Positions 35,762-56,679 of a DNA stretch of 64,000 bases are shown piece after piece. The first letter of the stretch is position 1, and each line of letters opens with the position of its first letter. Source of the DNA: a virus. Location of the stretch: IMG/VR virus record IMGVR_UViG_3300035338_000016, positions 14,784 through 78,783 of that record. One strand, given 5' to 3'. The translations under genes were made by a program, and so were the position numbers. The notes beneath the pieces were generated by a model that was not told the origin of the DNA, ran no database searches, and saw nothing but the letters and a program-made list of their open reading frames with translations.

Positions 35762-37966
35762 TTAAGCTATCTTTTCGTTTGCTTTATCAATATGATGCTT
35801 CAAACTACCAATTAATTTATTTAACATTTCTACTTTACTAACATAGGCTTGTCCAGCATAAGAAGACTTTGATAATTTAACAAACCAATCAATACAATCT
35901 TCTTCATTTAAATCATTATCATAAACATACTTAACTACACTAACCAAAGCAGGAATATTTCCAGCGCTTAAAATTGCAGACTCGCTATCAACATCTAAAG
36001 TCCACTGATCTAATGAGGCTAAGTACAATAAGGTATCATCAATGTTATCACTCGTGAATTTGTTAGAGTCAACAAAATTGGTAATATCAGCATCAGACAG
36101 TTTGTCCACTCCACAAACCATCATTAAGCTCTGCATAGCGATTGTTGTCTTGTCTGAACCTTTTACAGAACAAACTTTAGTTAAATCAGAATTATTGAAA
36201 TCCACAATATACTTCTTTAATTCTTCACTTTCAATATGTAAATCTTCTTGTGTTTCTTCTTCGATATGTAAAAAACTGTTCATTAAACTTTCTAATAAGT
36301 TTAGTTTATCAATGACAATCTTTTTATCCTTCGTAGAATTGCTTTTATTATTTAAGTCATCATAACTGATATTATTTAATTTTGTTATATGTAATGACTG
36401 AGTAAATTCAGCCATAAATTCTACAAATCTTTCGTCGTCAAGTTCTGATTTGACAAATCTAGCAAATAATCCAAACCAGATAAATGAATCTCTTGAGTCA
36501 AACATATTGAATACTTCTTCATTTCCTACTTTTGTAAGTCTCAATACCATATCTTCAAAATTGTCAAACTGTTCAACTGTTGCATTGTCTTTCATAAACT
36601 CACACATGTCTTCTTGTTTCTTCTTCCAATTCTCAACAAAATTAGAAGCCATTACACTCTCAACAACTACACGATTAATAGTTCCATTTGTTGCTTCTGA
36701 CACCTTGTAACCACCCAAATCCTTAAAGAATTCCATATTAGAGATACTTTTTACATGAGATGCAAATTCTTCACCCAATCTTGTAATACCCTTTTGGGAA
36801 GCGTTCATTGGCTTGCCTTCGTTATATCTTGCGATATGATAAGCAATATCTTCATTAGAACAATTTAGATATTGCACTATTTCAAAGTTATAATCCTTAA
36901 TTTTGTCTTGCAATTCCTCCGGCAAATCAGAAAATTTTTTACTCCTAATATCAAAACTTCTCAATTCACTTTGTGGGAAACCATTAGCGTCAAGTATAAA
37001 TTTGCCGACTTCATCTTTAAGCTGCGCCTGATAGTGAATATCCCATCTACGAATGTTACGAGAAATTTTATATCCGTCATTGATAAAGGAATGGATGTTT
37101 GTACAACGCTGTTTTCCATCTAAGTCCCATATAATTGCCAAACCATTCAACACCTGTTCAGCAAATACAAGAGAGGGAATAGGGTTTCCTTGAAGCATAT
37201 CAGAGATTAAATTTCCTTTCATGGCGGGACTCCATTGACCAGACTCTCTCTGTAATGGATGGTCAAAACGAATTGTATAACTGTCAATTTTTTTCATAAT
37301 GGATGCCACACTTAATTTATCTGGTTTACTTTTTTCTAACGTCTGTACACTACCCATATTTTCTTCTTCCTCCTCTTGTAATCCATTGTTATTAGCATAT
37401 AATTCATATGTATTTTCAAATGATTTGATTTGCTCCCAGAGCTTATTGTATTGATTGTCTGTTAGATTCATCTTCTCTTTTATGATTGATGCCTCTAGTC
37501 CATTAATCTTATATTGTAAAAGCTTCTTTTGCTTGTCTGATAGATTATTATAGAACTTTTCAATTTTTTCATCTTTAAACTGAAAACCAAAATCGTTAGA
37601 ATAGATTTCGCAGTCAAGGTCAAAATCAGAAACAATCGTATCACTAACTGTAAACCCGTCATTCCCAATTGGAGTTTCAATGGATATTTCTTCTTTTCCC
37701 TTTTCAGGCTTTCTCTTTTTTCTGTTTCTTCTGGTCATTTCAGTCTTAACTTTATTGGATATACAACTATAAAGAAAACCATCGAAACTTTGTTCTCCAT
37801 CATATCTTTTTAAAACATCTGAAAAGACTTCGTTTGCCAACGAATAAAAATCATCACAATCTTTTTGACAAACACTAGGGAATTTTCTCAATATTGAATT
37901 AACCATCTTATGCAAACGACTCCCCTCATTTGCGTAATAATGTTCTAAAAATACAGAGCTATCCAT
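35762..37966 (-). CDS. Sigma70-family factor (regions 2 and 4) fused to a DUF262/ParB-like domain
   Basis: DDFYSLANEVF...SFDGFLYSCISNKV and LSDKQKKLL...KMNL; then HPLQR...W...NLI...GNPIP...DGKQR. Confidence 0.8.
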   Translation of the reverse strand: MDSSVFLEHYYANEGSRLHKMVNSILRKFPSVCQKDCDDFYSLANEVFSDVLKRYDGEQSFDGFLYSCISNKVKTEMTRRNRKKRKPEKGKEEISIETPIGNDGFTVSDTIVSDFDLDCEIYSNDFGFQFKDEKIEKFYNNLSDKQKKLLQYKINGLEASIIKEKMNLTDNQYNKLWEQIKSFENTYELYANNNGLQEEEEENMGSVQTLEKSKPDKLSVASIMKKIDSYTIRFDHPLQRESGQWSPAMKGNLISDMLQGNPIPSLVFAEQVLNGLAIIWDLDGKQRCTNIHSFINDGYKISRNIRRWDIHYQAQLKDEVGKFILDANGFPQSELRSFDIRSKKFSDLPEELQDKIKDYNFEIVQYLNCSNEDIAYHIARYNEGKPMNASQKGITRLGEEFASHVKSISNMEFFKDLGGYKVSEATNGTINRVVVESVMASNFVENWKKKQEDMCEFMKDNATVEQFDNFEDMVLRLTKVGNEEVFNMFDSRDSFIWFGLFARFVKSELDDERFVEFMAEFTQSLHITKLNNISYDDLNNKSNSTKDKKIVIDKLNLLESLMNSFLHIEEETQEDLHIESEELKKYIVDFNNSDLTKVCSVKGSDKTTIAMQSLMMVCGVDKLSDADITNFVDSNKFTSDNIDDTLLYLASLDQWTLDVDSESAILSAGNIPALVSVVKYVYDNDLNEEDCIDWFVKLSKSSYAGQAYVSKVEMLNKLIGSLKHHIDKANEKIA

Positions 37967-38028
37967 GAAACGCCTCCTTATTATGGAATTTTTTGTATAA
38001 ATTTGTAAAAATATTAGTAGAATTTTGC

Positions 38029-38057
38029 TTGAAATAAGCGAGACATGTAGGTATAAT
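38029..38057 (+). promoter_or_regulatory. Antisense sigmaA promoter
   Basis: TTGAAA-17-TATAAT. Confidence 0.7.
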
Positions 38058-38061
38058 ATGA

Positions 38062-38140
38062 AAATAGGCGCACTTATAGTGTGTTTATGGGAGGTAGTAC
38101 CCGACTAGGCGACCAAACTTCGGCGGGTACTACCTTAACT
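38062..38140 (+). ncRNA. Putative two-hairpin antisense RNA
   Basis: GU-containing hairpin 38065-38087; 12-bp stem 38092-38103/38124-38135 with CGACCAAAC loop. Confidence 0.55.
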
Positions 38141-38225
38141 ATTTATATTACATCTTAATCCTCAATTCTATTTTATCTTCTGTAAACAATTAAAAACTTA
38201 TGTAAAATTTAACAGGAACAATCAA

Positions 38226-38279
38226 AGTATAGTACGAATGAATGTTCCTGTCAATACAAATACACCGAAATTTTGTTCT
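38226..38279 (-). promoter_or_regulatory. sigmaA promoter for the sigma-DUF262 gene with LexA (Cheo)-like boxes
   Basis: TTGACA (38249-54)-17-TATACT (38226-31); CGAATGAATGTTCC in the spacer (38235-48); CGAAATTTTGTTCT at 38266-79. Confidence 0.7.
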
Positions 38280-38296
38280 ACTTTATTCGACAATAC

Positions 38297-38590
38297 CTAC
38301 CTTAAGAGTATGATATTTTGAATTCCTTTAGGCTTTAGGTTCATAATATCAGGCTGTATTTCCGTAAACACTTTGAGCTGTTTGACAAAGTCATCACAAA
38401 ATGATGCTATTGTTTCAGCATCTTTTATCATAGTTTCACAATCTAATTTTAATCTTGGATAGAATTGGCAATCAATATCTTTTGCAGTTTCGAGGTCTGT
38501 AATTGCCACCATAACTTTTTTACCCTTTGAGGATTGCAACAATTTAATTGCCTCTTCAGTTGTTACTTCTATATATTTCATATTTCCCAT
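38297..38590 (-). CDS. Hypothetical protein downstream of mazF
   Basis: 97-aa ORF with SD. Confidence 0.7.
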   Translation of the reverse strand: MGNMKYIEVTTEEAIKLLQSSKGKKVMVAITDLETAKDIDCQFYPRLKLDCETMIKDAETIASFCDDFVKQLKVFTEIQPDIMNLKPKGIQNIILLR

Positions 38591-38604
38591 AGTCTAACCC
38601 CCAA

Positions 38605-38955
38605 TTAATCTCCAAAATTCGCATCATATACTCTTTTAATTTCTTTTAAAGCCTTTGGACTAGTAACTTTACCCATCTTTTTTATTATTCTTTCTTCTGA
38701 AATTACACGCATTTGTTCTCCCAACAACATAGAATCTACTTTAAGTCCGTTGTCATCATCCTTTTCAATCAGTGCATGAGTTGGGATATGTAGACTTTTA
38801 ATGACATGCGTTAATGGCATGACAATAGTTGTTGAACTGTGAACGTTTCCAATATTATTTTGTATGACAATAGCATATCTTATTTTCCCTTGTTCAGATC
38901 CAACCGAACCTGTCAAGTCTACTTTAACTACATCATTTTTAAGAATACCCGTCAT
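38605..38955 (-). CDS. mazF: MazF/PemK-family endoribonuclease
   Basis: VGSEQGKIRYAIVIQNNIGN...TTIVMPLT...PTH; the catalytic Arg and Thr equivalents are retained. Confidence 0.92.
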   Translation of the reverse strand: MTGILKNDVVKVDLTGSVGSEQGKIRYAIVIQNNIGNVHSSTTIVMPLTHVIKSLHIPTHALIEKDDDNGLKVDSMLLGEQMRVISEERIIKKMGKVTSPKALKEIKRVYDANFGD

Positions 38956-38999
38956 ATCACATCCCCCTTTCTAATATTTACCTTTTTTACTTATCTTGA

Positions 39000-39085
39000 A
39001 TTATAGCAAGTTGATATCAACTTGTCAATAGGTATATGGCAATTTATTCAAAAAAGTTGACATCAATCTTGTATCAGCCTATAAT
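39000..39085. promoter_or_regulatory. Back-to-back consensus sigmaA promoters with palindromic operators
   Basis: Leftward TTGACA (39023-28)-17-TATAAT (39000-05); rightward TTGACA (39057-62)-17-TATAAT (39080-85); perfect palindrome CAAGTTGATATCAACTTG at 39007-24 and a degenerate copy at 39054-70. Confidence 0.85.
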
Positions 39086-39120
39086 CAAGTTACCATAAGA
39101 AATTTGAAAGGAGAATTAAT

Positions 39121-39279
39121 ATGGCAGCAGGTCAAATTTCAGATAAAAACACAAGAATCGCAGTTACCATTCCAAAAGATTTAAAGTTTGAAGCAGAGGT
39201 TATTGCTACAAAAGAAAATAGATCATTAAGCAATTTAATAGTTACATTACTCTCTAAGTATGTAGCTGAAAATAAATAA
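39121..39279 (+). CDS. 52-aa ribbon-helix-helix (Arc/CopG-like) regulator
   Basis: Not in track; GAAAGGAG SD; TRIAVTIPKDLKFEAEVIATKENRSLSNLIVTLL. Confidence 0.85.
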   Translation: MAAGQISDKNTRIAVTIPKDLKFEAEVIATKENRSLSNLIVTLLSKYVAENK

Positions 39280-39287
39280 TAATAATA

Positions 39288-39316
39288 AAAGACGATAATA
39301 ATTAATTATCGTCTTT
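39288..39316. terminator. Bidirectional terminator
   Basis: AAAGACGATAAT-AATTA-ATTATCGTCTTT between convergent genes. Confidence 0.75.
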
Positions 39317-39352
39317 ACATTCCTTATTCACATGAAATTCCACATTCAAACG

Positions 39353-39898
39353 TTACTTTTCATTTCTCTCAAACCCTAAAATCAATCCAGTATTCTGTCC
39401 ATCAATCATATCTTTAAGTATCGTACACTGAATAGGGAAAATTTCATCATGTTTTTTATTTAATAAACTATATGTCAGTGCTGTATATTTCTTAAAATAA
39501 CTATCAGGTAAACTACCATACCAAAATGCTATTAGCTCTCCATTTTCTGTAATTAGAATCGGATGCTGATAACTTATATCGAATAGATTGCCAAGTTCTG
39601 GAGGTGACATGAATCCTCTGAGTGTTGTTCCATCCGCTAAAATAAAGTCTGTCTTAACAAGAAACATCCATTGTTCTTCATCTGATGGTACTTTACCACT
39701 CCAAGGTCTAAAGATTTCTTCGTCCGTATCATCATACCAATCTTCATCATAATCTAGGCAGTGACATCCTACCCATACTGGACAAACTTCAAAATCTGAA
39801 TTCCTTAATTCATTATGTTGTTTTAAAATTGGTTTTTCTTTATTGACGCTTTCTTTGAGTTCTATTGAATCATTATTAAATAATGGTTTTTTATTCAT
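39353..39898 (-). CDS. Hypothetical acidic protein
   Basis: 181-aa ORF with SD. Confidence 0.65.
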   Translation of the reverse strand: MNKKPLFNNDSIELKESVNKEKPILKQHNELRNSDFEVCPVWVGCHCLDYDEDWYDDTDEEIFRPWSGKVPSDEEQWMFLVKTDFILADGTTLRGFMSPPELGNLFDISYQHPILITENGELIAFWYGSLPDSYFKKYTALTYSLLNKKHDEIFPIQCTILKDMIDGQNTGLILGFERNEK

Positions 39899-39957
39899 TT
39901 TTCTTGCCTCCTCGATATAATTACAGCAACTTATGTCCCGTTAATTAATTGCTTTGT

Positions 39958-40623
39958 TCACTCGTTTGTATTTATTAGTTCATTAGCTTTATCAGGGTTC
40001 ACATTATCAAAATCATCGTTTATAACATTTCCATTGATTGTATATGTAAAACTATAATGGTCTGGTATTTGAGTGTCTGTGTCAGGATAAGTGATTATCG
40101 CAACAAAATTACTGCAACCACCAGCATCTCTAATTACCTTTTCCATGTAAGCTTGATTTCCATGTCTATTTAATGTACTATTTTGTGGTGTGATATTGTA
40201 AGCATTTGAAACACCGCCAAGAGAATCGGCAATCACATGTCCTTCATCTAAATCCTTTCTCTCCGTTCCCGGTACTTTAGCTTCATCTGAATAATACCTA
40301 CCTTTCGAATTAACTGGCTCGACAGAATCGTCTTGTAATATGATTTTATTTGCTGTGACCATTACAAGTTGTCCGAATTCGTTAGTATAAGCCCAATATT
40401 CTCTGTCACCAAATCCTATGTCAACAATAACATTAGGCTCTCTATGTCCTGATAGATCGCCTCCGTCTATTTCAATTAGTTTATTTTCGCTGTATTGGTT
40501 TTCGATTACGCCATCGTATGCTGAAGTTGATTTGGATATATTTATTGCCTCTGTATTAATTATGGCATATATCGCAATTATTAAGCTTATTACTAAGCTA
40601 AAGGTTGTTTTCTTATTTTTCAT
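39958..40623 (-). CDS. Secreted DNA/RNA non-specific endonuclease (His-Me finger)
   Basis: N-terminal signal/TM, NEFGQLV, DEGHVIADSLGG, NITPQNSTLN. Confidence 0.85.
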   Translation of the reverse strand: MKNKKTTFSLVISLIIAIYAIINTEAINISKSTSAYDGVIENQYSENKLIEIDGGDLSGHREPNVIVDIGFGDREYWAYTNEFGQLVMVTANKIILQDDSVEPVNSKGRYYSDEAKVPGTERKDLDEGHVIADSLGGVSNAYNITPQNSTLNRHGNQAYMEKVIRDAGGCSNFVAIITYPDTDTQIPDHYSFTYTINGNVINDDFDNVNPDKANELINTNE

Positions 40624-40658
40624 ATCTGTTGCCCCTTACTTATAATTCGAATTAGATA

Positions 40659-42390
40659 TTATTGTATAATGCGTATTCCACAACCCTCACATGCAGCGTG
40701 AATATGACCATTTATTTCTGCTCTTGCACCAACTGCTGCTCCTCCACATATAGGACAAGTAAACTCATAGGGCTTACCTCTTTCAACTATAATTTTGTCT
40801 GCTTCTAAAATGAATTTCAAATACCCATCAGCTTTATTTTCATCTTTATTCATGTTTAACCTTACCTTTCAAATAAGTAATTCATTTGCTCAATTAAAAT
40901 TGTTAATTTACTTATTTTTCAATTGAACATTAAATAAATATTCCAATGTATTATAATGTATTATTCTATTTTCAACTAGTGTTATTACATTGCTAATACT
41001 ATCTTTCAATTCCGAAATATAATCAATTAACTCTTCTTTAGTACATTCTTCAATTGCTACTCCATCTTGTTCTATTTCTGTTAGTTTTGTCAATATTTCT
41101 AACATGATATTCTTCTCCTATCATAAAATCAGCATTCATTTGCTACTATTTTTGAATACTTTCTAATCTTAGACTTAGTTAGTTCATAATTAAATGTGGT
41201 TGAGCATATCAACATTAAATCAGCCTGATCAATATGATTATACTTTTCTAAAAATGGAACTATTGTTTTCATATAATCATCTTGTATTTGTTCATACCTT
41301 GTATCATCAATTTGTCCATTGTCTGCCCTATTTAATTTTTCCATACTTATAATTCATTCTCCAATCCTATTGCATTATTTTAACTCCACAACCATCACAG
41401 GCTGCGTGTATATGACCGTTAATACTTGCTTTAGCTCCTACGGCTTTACCACCACACAGAGGACATATAAACTCGTATGGTGTATCAGGATCAATTATAA
41501 CTTTGCTCGCTTCCGAAAGAAAAGTAAAACATTTTTGTAATGCTTCATTGTCATTCATCTATACTCTCCATTCTAACAGTTCCACACTTTGGGCATGAAT
41601 ATAAACTAACATTAAAATATTCTTGATAATTATAGTTACCGTGTTCACAAGGATAAGGATTTTCTATCATAACTGAATTATGTGTATAAATTTGAATAAA
41701 TCTTTCGTCACCAATAATGTTTTTATATCCTTCAGACGTCCATTCACCTTCATGTTCATAGCCACAAGCTGCGCACTTCATATTTATTGCCCTCTTTCTA
41801 AAACAGAATTTTATTTTCAATCATATTAATAACATTATTAATTTGATTTTTTAACTCTGCAATATAATCAATTAACTCTTCATTCGTACACTCTTCAATA
41901 GCAATACCATCTCTTTCTATTACCTTTAATTTTTCTAATACTTCTTCTATATTAGTCACCCCCAATTCTTTTATGTAAAACTTAGTTTTTACTAAGTTCA
42001 TCTTTGAATATTTTGCAGCTCTCAACTTCATAGCCCATATCAATTAAATCTTCTTCAACTAAAAATCTTAAGGTTTCTTCTGTATTTTCAGGATCATCAC
42101 TTAGATCCGTTTCAATATCAATTAATAATCTGGCTTTAATTTTCATAGTCCCTCCGTTAAAAATCTTCTAATTCAATATCTTTATCTCTTGTATTAAACT
42201 CAAATCCACATGTAGTACATTTTACGTCCATAAATCGCAAATCAATTCTATCATGAATACTATTACCACAATAATCCATTGTCGCTTCTTTTGGGTTCAT
42301 CAAATTAATTATATTGCCACATTCAGGACAAATCATTTCTGCCCTTCTTAATGGAGCAATTTCATATTCTACTTTAATTTTTATGCTCAA
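40659..42390 (-). other. Small CDS cluster with two internal paralog pairs
   Basis: 40659-40853 and 41367-41558 share YEF.CP.CGG.AVGA.A.INGHIHAAC.GCG; 40908-41105 and 41798-42043 share IE.DG.AIEECT.EELIDYI.ELK; also 41129-41344, 41551-41820, 42157-42390. Confidence 0.8.
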
Positions 42391-56064: not shown

Positions 56065-56199
56065 AGTATACCATAGGTTAACCAATATATCAATAGGTTA
56101 ACCAACATTTTATCACTTTTAGCATTATGCATAATTAATATTGATTAATAGGTTAACCGATTGTTTATTTGTTACAAAAGTATAATATTTGGGTTAACC
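56065..56199. promoter_or_regulatory. Leftward promoter with four GGTTAACC operators
   Basis: TTGATA (56088-93)-17-TG-TATACT (56065-70); GGTTAACC at 56076, 56096, 56151, 56192. Confidence 0.8.
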
Positions 56200-56243
56200 T
56201 ACATATAATAGAATATGGTTTTAATATGAAAGGGGTTGTAATT

Positions 56244-56456
56244 ATGGCGATGACAGAAGCGCAGAAAGAAGCCGACAAGAGATATAGGGAAAAGAATAAA
56301 CCTTTGACCTTTGCTATTGCATATAAAGCGATTGATATTGTAGATGGATTTAGACTAAAGAAATACTTAGAGCAAACTGGACAAAGTGCAAATAGCTATA
56401 TTAAAGAATTGATTAAGCAAGATTTAGATAGAAAAGAGTTTGATATAAATGATTAG
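56244..56456 (+). CDS. Ribbon-helix-helix-like regulator
   Basis: MTEAQKEADKRYREKN...GQSANSYIKELIKQDL. Confidence 0.7.
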   Translation: MAMTEAQKEADKRYREKNKPLTFAIAYKAIDIVDGFRLKKYLEQTGQSANSYIKELIKQDLDRKEFDIND

Positions 56457-56679
56457 ATACAAAGGGGACATTTTAGGAAGATTGAAAGATAAAGGATATT
56501 CCACATATAAAATCAAAGAAGAAAAGATATTCAATCAATCACAAGTGCAACAAATAAGGGATGATAAACTATTGACCCAAGATGCATTAAATAAGTTGTG
56601 TAGATTGTTAGACTGTCAACCGGGAGACTTAATGGAATATATACCAGACATTGAGCAAATGGAGAATGAAGTGGAATAG
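56449..56679 (+). CDS. Cro/C1-type HTH (HTH_26/YozG-like) regulator
   Basis: LKDKGYSTYKI...LNKLCRLLDCQPGDLMEY. Confidence 0.85.
   Translation: MIRYKGDILGRLKDKGYSTYKIKEEKIFNQSQVQQIRDDKLLTQDALNKLCRLLDCQPGDLMEYIPDIEQMENEVE

What the first reader, a model, noticed from the sequence alone, without database searches (positions are those of the whole stretch)
38605..39279. Genetic switch: RHH repressor divergent from an antitoxin-less MazF
Two perfect TTGACA-17-TATAAT promoters sit back to back. An 18-bp perfect palindrome fills the spacer of the leftward one and a degenerate copy overlaps the -35 of the rightward one. The rightward gene is a 52-aa RHH protein (missed by the track); the leftward first gene is a MazF with intact catalytic residues and no upstream mazE. 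Established: in SPbeta the host MazEF system takes part in the lysis-lysogeny decision (AimX, YosL). Inference: this phage carries its own MazF as a decision or host-shutoff effector, controlled transcriptionally by the RHH or neutralised by it or by the 97-aa downstream protein.
Basis: partly seen in the sequence, partly recalled or inferred. Interest (0 to 1): 0.7.

Follow-up and report, generated by a model that had tools for sequence, protein, structure and literature searches.

The report
Repressor-gated phage MazF with novel partner
A large SPbeta-like prophage places a MazF RNA-cutting toxin and a previously undescribed ~95-residue partner protein behind a very strong promoter that a small divergent repressor shuts through a palindromic operator; so the toxin is not "antitoxin-less", and its likely antidote is a new protein family.

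Summary
Two 12/12 TTGACA-17-TATAAT promoters sit back to back. An 18-bp perfect palindrome fills the mazF promoter spacer, and a 10/12 copy of its core overlaps the -35 of the RHH promoter. The 52-aa ORF is a Pfam RHH_5 protein, and the 116-aa ORF is a MazF with the catalytic Arg and Thr.

- **RHH as repressor: supported.** The only relative with the same layout (L037, RHH 65% identical) keeps both promoters. Its operator sits at the same place and differs by a symmetric double change that preserves the palindrome. A sister locus (L027, MazF 96% identical to L037) carries an XRE-HTH regulator and no such palindrome, and DNA homology resumes exactly at the -10 box. Regulator and operators therefore swap as one cassette.
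- **"Antitoxin-less": not supported.** In 52 of 53 related loci that extend far enough, a ~90-100-aa ORF of one family follows MazF directly (gap -22 to +20 nt). The family is acidic, has no Pfam, PHROG or PADLOC match, and gives a confident globular model with no clear structural relative. The RHH has no toxin-binding tail, and its homologues elsewhere lack MazF.
- **Best reading:** a three-part module of swappable repressor, MazF and a new candidate inhibitor, at the head of the early operon, upstream of a conserved LexA-box promoter.
- **Not shown:** binding, toxicity and biological role.

The parts
39121..39279 (+). 52-aa ribbon-helix-helix repressor gene (AGGAG ribosome-binding site 8 nt upstream of the ATG)
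   Evidence: Pfam RHH_5, 33.9 bits against a cut-off of 26. PHROG 'Arc-like repressor'. A 65%-identical orthologue sits in the same position in L037. There are no residues beyond the RHH fold.
39057..39085 (+). RHH promoter, TTGACA-17-TATAAT (12/12)
   Evidence: A 12/12 promoter occupies the same position in L037.
39053..39071 (.). Weaker operator copy O2. Core GTTGACATCAAT at 39056-39067 matches the perfect core at 10/12 and overlaps the -35 of the RHH promoter. Inferred site of autoregulation.
   Evidence: It is the only other hit to the palindrome at up to 3 edits in the 127.5-kb record; the core match is. L037 also has weaker copies of its own core in and beside its RHH promoter.
39007..39024 (.). 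Operator O1: the 18-bp perfect palindrome CAAGTTGATATCAACTTG (core 39010-39021), which fills the spacer of the mazF promoter
   Evidence: In L037 the same position holds GTTTATATAAAC, a symmetric double change that keeps the palindrome. It is absent from HTH-type relatives.
39000..39028 (-). mazF operon promoter, TTGACA-17-TGnTATAAT (12/12 plus extended -10)
   Evidence: Relatives keep an 11-12/12 promoter here in most cases (10/12 in L014), whichever regulator they carry.
38605..38955 (-). MazF/PemK endoribonuclease, 116 aa, with catalytic Arg26 and Thr49 present
   Evidence: Pfam PF02452, E 2e-21. PDB MazF (S. aureus, B. subtilis), E 1e-14 with alignment. R26 is invariant across 30 homologues.
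38297..38590 (-). 97-aa conserved MazF partner of a new family, the candidate antitoxin or inhibitor. Its Shine-Dalgarno sequence starts directly after the mazF stop codon.
   Evidence: It follows MazF directly in 52 of 53 related loci that extend far enough. The family has 128 representatives at 50% identity and no family annotation. It is acidic while MazF is basic. AlphaFold2 model: pLDDT 90.9, with no clear structural match.
39288..39316 (.). Hairpin terminator that ends the upstream leftward genes and probably also the RHH transcript. It makes the mazF promoter the start of a new transcription unit.
   Evidence: 12-pair stem followed by a T-rich tail on the - strand.
38226..38254 (-). Next promoter downstream (TTGACA-17-TATACT) with a LexA-like box in its spacer, ahead of the sigma/DUF262 gene. 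This is context for the finding, not part of the MazF module.
   Evidence: The same promoter with GAAC-N4-GTTC boxes follows the pair in all eight relatives inspected. It was first noted in e1-5351345.

Best explanation
This is a three-part module at the head of the early/replication gene array of a large SPbeta-like prophage.

(1) The 52-aa RHH protein is a dedicated transcriptional repressor. It binds the palindrome O1 in the spacer of the very strong mazF promoter and blocks RNA polymerase. It binds the weaker copy O2 over the -35 of its own promoter and so limits its own synthesis. The pairing of regulator with operator is shown by comparison; the binding itself is inferred.

(2) mazF and the 97-aa gene form one tightly coupled operon. 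MazF is a catalytically intact sequence-specific endoribonuclease.

(3) The 97-aa protein is MazF's cognate partner, most likely a globular, acidic inhibitor encoded after the toxin (reversed gene order) and lacking any DNA-binding domain. Transcriptional control has therefore been handed to a separate, exchangeable repressor (RHH here, XRE-HTH in most relatives). The partnership is shown by synteny; inhibition is inferred.

No terminator separates the pair from the LexA-box promoter and the sigma/replication genes downstream. The mazF promoter therefore probably has to be kept off in the lysogen, which would make MazF and its partner immediate-early products made on infection or induction (inferred). 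Their likely job is to act on host or competitor RNA, or to bias the lysis-lysogeny outcome as host MazF does for phi3T (speculative).
For: - Promoters, palindrome and second copy.
- RHH domain above the Pfam cut-off.
- Orthologous locus L037 (RHH 65% identical): both promoters are 12/12. The operator core in the same spacer position differs by a symmetric pair of changes (GTTGATATCAAC versus GTTTATATAAAC). Weaker copies lie in and beside its RHH promoter. The predicted DNA-reading beta-strand also differs (TRIAVTIP versus TIMSFAIP).
- Natural swap: L037 and L027 have 95.7%-identical MazF, but L027 carries an XRE-HTH regulator and no such palindrome. DNA homology between them resumes at the -10 box of the mazF promoter and again beyond the regulator gene. 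The operator therefore tracks the regulator, not MazF or the partner.
- Partner: all 25 viral or genome loci of this MazF clade, and 27 of 28 metagenome loci that extend far enough, have a family member directly downstream on the same strand, with a gap of -22 to +20 nt. The flanking genes and the regulator type vary.
- The two partner subfamilies are bridged by intermediate sequences.
- The partner diverges faster than MazF (close homologues are mostly 53-66% versus 70-78% identical).
- The partner family is acidic (median pI 5.6) and MazF is basic (median pI 9.5).
- RHH homologues elsewhere (L018-L026) have no MazF nearby.
- The RHH has no C-terminal extension. Its marginal best PDB hit covers only residues 6-48 of the 94-aa B. 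subtilis MazE/EndoAI.
- No terminator was found between the partner gene and the next promoter.
- LexA-box promoters are conserved after the pair in relatives.
Against: - There is no direct evidence that the partner binds or neutralises MazF.
- Its confident, fully globular model is unlike the partly disordered tails of classical MazE antitoxins.
- Strict synteny could also fit a cofactor or a co-selected early gene.
- Only two RHH-type loci exist for the operator comparison, so covariation rests on n=2.
- A near-identical strain carries A>C at 39014 inside the core, so the perfect symmetry is not itself conserved.
- The expression timing (repressed in the lysogen) is inferred from the absence of a recognisable terminator, not from RNA data.
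- The canonical Firmicute MazF motif UACAU is not avoided in the phage's coding strands (213 observed, 182 expected). That gives no support to a self-sparing host-shutoff design, though this MazF's specificity is unknown.
Confidence: 0.6

Rival explanations
1. The divergent RHH is itself the antitoxin: a MazE-like protein, as in B. subtilis EndoAI, that both represses the promoter and neutralises MazF. The 97-aa protein is then an unrelated early gene.
For: The window RHH's only PDB hit is the RHH domain of EndoAI/MazE (4me7_E, E 0.075). RHH antitoxins of MazF are well known. The L037 orthologue has a 20-residue C-terminal extension.
Against: The hit is marginal and covers only EndoAI residues 6-48, the RHH domain, of a 94-aa protein. 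The 52-aa protein has nothing left over to bind a toxin. The L037 orthologue gives no PDB hit at all. Most relatives, including one with 96%-identical MazF, have an XRE-HTH regulator instead. RHH homologues in other viral contigs lack MazF.
Confidence: 0.07
2. MazF is a solitary effector. It is controlled only at the level of transcription, and the downstream 97-aa protein has an independent function (for example anti-defence or replication).
For: The partner has no similarity to any known antitoxin and is predicted to be a stable globular domain. Other cultured phages carry a MazF homologue with no member of the partner family directly downstream: Enterocloster phage PMBT24 and Psychrobacillus phage Perkons.
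Against: In 52 of 53 loci the two genes stay adjacent, often with overlapping stop and start codons, across MazF identities down to 34%. Meanwhile both neighbours change. The charges are complementary. An unrestrained active MazF behind a consensus promoter would be hard for a temperate phage to carry.
Confidence: 0.15
3. Same parts, different role: the pair is a conventional addiction or abortive-infection toxin-antitoxin cassette expressed in the lysogen. The RHH only damps expression, and the module stabilises the prophage or excludes other phages rather than acting early in the phage's own cycle.
For: Toxin-antitoxin modules on prophages commonly do this, and three-component prophage systems such as paaR-paaA-parE are known (PMC7167474). 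Host MazF has been proposed to suppress phi3T lytic propagation, possibly by abortive infection (PMC10769878).
Against: The module always sits at the head of the early/replication array. Nothing recognisable as a terminator separates it from the LexA-controlled promoter, so constitutive transcription would read into lytic genes. There is no PADLOC match. This is positional evidence only.
Confidence: 0.2

Closest known systems
Bacillus/Staphylococcus MazEF (EndoAI-EndoA, PDB 4ME7/4MDX/4MZM)
   Same: The toxin is a clear MazF/PemK family member with the catalytic Arg and Thr. An RHH DNA-binding protein controls the promoter.
   Different: There is no antitoxin gene upstream. The RHH is divergently transcribed, has no toxin-binding tail and is replaceable by an HTH protein. 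The conserved partner lies downstream and is unrelated in sequence and predicted fold to MazE.
Three-component toxin-antitoxin systems with a separate regulator (omega-epsilon-zeta; paaR-paaA-parE of E. coli O157 cryptic prophages)
   Same: Repressor, antitoxin and toxin are three separate proteins, and the antitoxin has no DNA-binding domain. In omega-epsilon-zeta the regulator is an RHH protein (own knowledge). The paaR systems are prophage-borne (PMC7167474).
   Different: Here the toxin is MazF and the regulator is divergent rather than co-transcribed. The regulator swaps as a cassette between RHH and XRE-HTH types. The gene order is toxin first.
Reverse-order type II systems (higBA, mqsRA, hicAB, rnlAB)
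   Same: The toxin gene precedes its candidate antitoxin (PMC7167474). rnlAB is prophage-borne.
   Different: In those systems the downstream antitoxin carries the DNA-binding domain and autoregulates. Here it has none recognisable. I found no report of MazF in this arrangement in the searches I ran.
phi3T/SPbeta AimX-YosL-phi3T_93 network acting on host MazEF (PMC10769878)
   Same: It is an SPbeta-type temperate phage whose regulatory region encodes proteins that bind and inhibit MazF. MazF activity feeds into the choice between lysis and lysogeny.
   Different: Those phages use the host's MazF and inhibit it with MazE-mimicking helices. This lineage carries its own MazF and an unrelated globular partner. 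No arbitrium genes were examined here, and no role in the decision is shown.
P22 immI region (mnt divergent from arc-ant)
   Same: A small RHH repressor is transcribed divergently from an operon whose promoter overlaps its operator (own knowledge). The PHROG match is 'Arc-like repressor'.
   Different: The controlled operon encodes a nuclease and its partner rather than an antirepressor. There is no sequence relationship beyond the RHH fold.

Membership tests
MazF/PemK endoribonuclease toxins (PF02452) | Sequence match to the family profile above the curated threshold | tested here: met
   76.7 bits against a cut-off of 23.1, E 2e-21. PHROG 1936 'MazF-like growth inhibitor', E 5e-21.
MazF/PemK endoribonuclease toxins (PF02452) | Catalytic Arg and Thr/Ser (B. 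subtilis R25/T48 equivalents) | tested here: met
   R26 and T49 align to the Arg and Thr of S. aureus MazF. R26 is invariant across 30 homologues. That these residues are catalytic is from my own knowledge of the B. subtilis structure work.
MazF/PemK endoribonuclease toxins (PF02452) | RNA cleavage and growth inhibition | not testable with these tools
   Needs expression and cleavage assays.
Canonical mazEF operon (antitoxin upstream, autoregulating) | Antitoxin gene immediately upstream and co-transcribed with the toxin | tested here: not met
   The promoter lies about 45 nt upstream of the mazF start and no ORF fits between them. The record has no PF04014 match.
Canonical mazEF operon (antitoxin upstream, autoregulating) | The antitoxin carries both a DNA-binding domain and a toxin-binding tail | tested here: not met
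   The RHH is 52 aa, and the domain match spans residues 11-52. The 97-aa partner has no DNA-binding family match.
Type II toxin-antitoxin pair (protein antitoxin neutralising by binding) | Conserved two-gene linkage of the toxin with one partner family | tested here: met
   52 of 53 loci that extend far enough; gap -22 to +20 nt.
Type II toxin-antitoxin pair (protein antitoxin neutralising by binding) | Physical complex and neutralisation of toxicity | not testable with these tools
   Needs co-expression rescue and binding assays.
Ribbon-helix-helix (Arc/MetJ/CopG) repressors | RHH domain match above threshold | tested here: met
   PF07878, 33.9 bits against a cut-off of 26. It is the only such match in the record.
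Ribbon-helix-helix (Arc/MetJ/CopG) repressors | Binds a repeated or palindromic operator overlapping the regulated promoter | tested here: inconclusive
   The operator is present and covaries with the regulator in L037. It is lost when the regulator is swapped. Binding itself is untested.

The most novel reading that the evidence does not exclude
Large SPbeta-like prophages of anaerobic Firmicutes carry their own MazF together with a new-fold globular inhibitor as the first products of the early operon. The pair would be an internalised version of the host-MazF/AimX/YosL circuit of phi3T. The ratio of MazF to partner, set by an exchangeable immunity repressor upstream and an SOS-controlled promoter downstream, would then help decide between lysis and lysogeny or shut off host and competitor RNA. 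The ~95-aa family would be the first MazF antitoxin that is encoded downstream, lacks DNA binding and has a fold of its own.
Probability: 0.3. Interest if true: 0.8.

Novelty: new variant of a known kind. Interest (0 to 1): 0.62.

Why it matters
MazF is one of the best-studied bacterial toxins, and its antitoxins have so far been described as upstream DNA-binding proteins with a toxin-binding tail. This module differs in three ways: the order is reversed, an unannotated globular partner family (at least 128 sequence clusters) takes the antitoxin's place, and control is handed to a swappable repressor cassette.

If the partner is an inhibitor, it adds a new antitoxin class and a new way to block MazF. 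The position is also notable. It sits beside the integrase-like gene in relatives and just upstream of a conserved LexA-box promoter, in phages built like SPbeta. In SPbeta-type phages host MazF has recently been shown to steer the lysis-lysogeny choice. That makes it directly testable whether phages can own that circuit rather than borrow it. Finally, the RHH and operator pair, with its natural covariation and cassette swap, is a ready-made specificity pair for studying or engineering small repressors.

Tried and rejected
- **Complex prediction** (two MazF chains plus the 97-aa partner, own alignments): no verdict, score 0.00. Not evidence either way.
- **AlphaFold2 of the partner with a shallow 16-row alignment:** poor model (pLDDT 61). 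Replaced by the 89-row alignment (pLDDT 90.9).
- **Fold searches with the good model:**
  - Foldseek against PDB: nothing at E <= 0.001.
  - VIA-align wide: best Z 5.3, to a designed protein.
  - BFVD: only one uncharacterised family member.
  - ESM Atlas: no usable hit.
- **Direct profile-profile comparison of the two partner subfamilies:** weak (probability 16.5%). The link rests on intermediate sequences.
- **The look-up of encoding contigs:** The contexts of the roughly 120 close MazF homologues and 128 partner representatives could not be fetched.
- **Megablast of the locus against phage records:** no match. **tblastn of the partner against phage records:** no match.
- **Rfam on 37500-39700:** nothing near threshold.
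- **PADLOC:** no match for the three proteins.
- **Genome-contig scan with the deep alignment:** With the shallow alignment it returned one locus.
- **Motif avoidance:** UACAU is not depleted on coding strands. This MazF's specificity is unknown, so the test is not decisive.
- **Sequencing runs:** no RNA holder is listed. One run guessed to be RNA has a contig identical over 38774-38962, but DNA carry-over cannot be excluded.
- **The integrase-like 352-aa protein:** no PDB sequence match, so a link to the SPbeta MrpR/SroF repressor could not be tested.
- **'Split MazE' idea** (RHH as the detached N-terminal domain of MazE): rests on a single E 0.075 hit and was not reproduced with the L037 orthologue. 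Set aside.

Full report
**Setting.** The window is bases 14784-78783 of a 127.5-kb IMG/VR provirus record. GC content is about 31% and nearly all genes lie on the minus strand. Leftward of the finding lie these genes:
- a sigma-like/DUF262 fusion;
- a DnaB-like helicase;
- a DHH exonuclease;
- a polymerase;
- a RecD2 helicase.

Near-identical DNA occurs in bioreactor and sludge-type metagenomes.

The two promoters are the only 12/12 matches in 37000-41000, and the mazF promoter also has a TG extended -10. The 18-bp palindrome (39007-39024) fills that promoter's spacer. It is unique in the window at up to 3 mismatches (expected 0.01) and in the whole record at up to 2 edits. The only other sequence within 3 edits anywhere in the record is the copy at 39053-39071. 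Its 12-bp core (39056-39067) matches the perfect core (39010-39021) at 10/12 and overlaps the -35 of the RHH promoter. The 52-aa ORF exceeds the Pfam RHH_5 threshold, and the 116-aa ORF is a clear MazF with the catalytic Arg and Thr aligned to solved MazF structures. A hairpin terminator at 39288-39316 ends the upstream leftward genes, so the mazF promoter starts a new transcription unit.

**The RHH is the repressor of this promoter pair.** One relative, L037, a 6.6-kb MAG contig, has the same layout: an RHH (65% identical) divergent from MazF and the partner gene.
- Both of its promoters are also 12/12.
- In the same spacer position it carries GTTTATATAAAC where the window has GTTGATATCAAC. 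The two changes are symmetric, so the palindrome is kept.
- Weaker copies of its own core lie in and beside its RHH promoter.
- The predicted DNA-reading strand of the two RHH proteins differs.

A second comparison works as a natural swap experiment. L027 has a MazF 95.7% identical to that of L037, but it carries an XRE-HTH regulator and has no such palindrome. DNA homology between the two loci stops at the -10 box of the mazF promoter and resumes beyond the regulator gene. Regulator, its promoter and the operators therefore move as one cassette of about 320-350 bp. The operator follows the regulator, not MazF or the partner. Binding itself remains untested, and the covariation rests on two loci. 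A near-identical strain has A>C at 39014 inside the core.

**MazF is not antitoxin-less.** The 97-aa ORF directly downstream (38297-38590) has its Shine-Dalgarno sequence immediately after the mazF stop codon.
- It has 27 close homologues and 128 cluster representatives at 50% identity.
- None of these carries a Pfam, PHROG, NCBIfam or PADLOC assignment.
- All 12 viral contigs with a clear homologue of it have MazF directly upstream.
- In all 25 viral or genome loci of this MazF clade, and in 27 of 28 metagenome loci that extend far enough, a family member follows MazF with a gap of -22 to +20 nt. This holds across MazF identities from 60% down to 34%.

The more distant partners form a second subfamily. 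It is linked to the first through intermediate sequences, whereas direct profile comparison is weak.

Around this constant pair, everything else varies:
- the regulator is an XRE-HTH in most loci and an RHH in two;
- the integrase-like gene is adjacent in relatives but 6 kb away here;
- a ~200-aa gene lies after the pair in some relatives but after the sigma gene here.

The partner diverges faster than MazF. It is acidic (median pI 5.6) while MazF is basic (9.5). With an 89-sequence alignment it gives a confident globular beta-alpha-beta-beta-alpha-beta-beta-beta model (pLDDT 90.9, pTM 0.81). That model has no convincing match among solved structures and matches only one uncharacterised family member among viral models.

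**The RHH is not the antitoxin.**
- It is only 52 aa, with nothing beyond the DNA-binding fold.
- Its marginal similarity to B. subtilis MazE covers residues 6-48 of that 94-aa protein, and the L037 orthologue does not reproduce it.
- It is absent from most loci that have the pair.
- Its homologues in nine other viral contigs have no MazF nearby.

**How the module most likely works.** The repressor occupies O1 and occludes a near-perfect sigma-A-type promoter. At higher concentration it also occupies O2 and limits its own synthesis. When the repressor is absent (fresh infection) or relieved, MazF and its partner are made together as the first products of this unit.

No recognisable terminator separates the pair from the next promoter. 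That promoter carries LexA-type boxes (GAAC-N4-GTTC) in the window and in all eight relatives inspected (first noted in e1-5351345). Constitutive firing of the mazF promoter would therefore read into the sigma/replication genes. This argues, by position only, that the pair is early-lytic rather than lysogen-expressed.

What MazF then does is open. It might cut host or rival RNA, or it might bias the decision as host MazF does in phi3T, where the phage proteins AimX and YosL bind and inhibit it (PMC10769878). UACAU, the motif cut by the Bacillus and Staphylococcus enzymes (own knowledge), is not depleted in the phage's coding strands.

**Comparison with known systems.** The toxin is an ordinary family member. 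The architecture is not a canonical mazEF operon, because the upstream-antitoxin and dual-domain-antitoxin features are both absent. In logic it most resembles three-component systems with a separate regulator (omega-epsilon-zeta, paaR-paaA-parE) and reverse-order systems (PMC7167474). It is combined with a divergent, cassette-swappable repressor as in phage immunity regions. Other cultured phages carry MazF homologues with no member of the partner family downstream, so a phage-borne MazF is not new in itself. The new element is the conserved partner family together with the regulatory design.

**Limits.**
- The complex prediction gave no verdict.
- No RNA data are available.
- Binding, toxicity, timing and role all need experiments.

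Noticed in passing
window 38226-38279; L003, L005, L014, L027, L028, L031, L037 in the gap after the partner gene: In the window and in every relative inspected, the non-coding gap after the MazF partner holds a TTGACA promoter flanked by or containing GAAC-N4-GTTC LexA-type boxes, often two. The window's box has one mismatch. This supports SOS control of the sigma/early operon across the lineage. Several relatives also carry tRNA-like sequences in this gap.
   Followed up: partly
L003, L005, L008, L014, L015, L016, L027, L037: 5' leaders of mazF (between the -10 and the start codon): Eight of eleven mazF leaders contain UACAU, the Bacillus/Staphylococcus MazF cleavage motif. In four of them a second copy overlaps the start codon (UACAUAUG). 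A conserved AAAGGU element lies just after the -10. The window's own leader has no UACAU. This may reflect self-cleavage feedback or only shared ancestry.
   Followed up: partly
window 56169-56679 (+): A second plus-strand island lies amid the minus-strand genes. It holds an RHH-like 95-aa ORF followed by a 76-aa XRE-HTH protein, which is a weak homologue (E 0.002) of the regulators that sit divergent from MazF in relatives. It may be the phage's main immunity region.
   Followed up: partly
L005, L008, L014, L015 and others: XRE-HTH regulators divergent from MazF: These regulators differ widely in length (75-161 aa), but many end in a conserved acidic tail, (K/E)DDT(K/N/E). This could be a degradation tag or a partner-binding tag.
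   Followed up: no
whole record (G000), coding strands: The most under-represented pentamers are CCTGG/CCAGG and GGACC/GGTCC (0-2 observed against 11-27 expected), which suggests avoidance of restriction sites. CGAAC is also depleted.
   Followed up: no
window 38029-38140 (+) and 38091-38135: An 11/12 plus-strand promoter faces the leftward LexA-box promoter. It is followed by a strong hairpin and would make an RNA antisense to the leader of the sigma/DUF262 gene. An earlier scan note already flagged it. No Rfam match.
   Followed up: no
window 39014: Two runs from one sample of a near-identical strain carry A>C inside the operator core (GTTGCTATCAAC). This is a natural operator variant.
   Followed up: partly
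L069 1201-2364: A distant MazF homologue (31% identical) lies inside a 387-aa ORF with no partner gene downstream. It may be a fused form.
   Followed up: no
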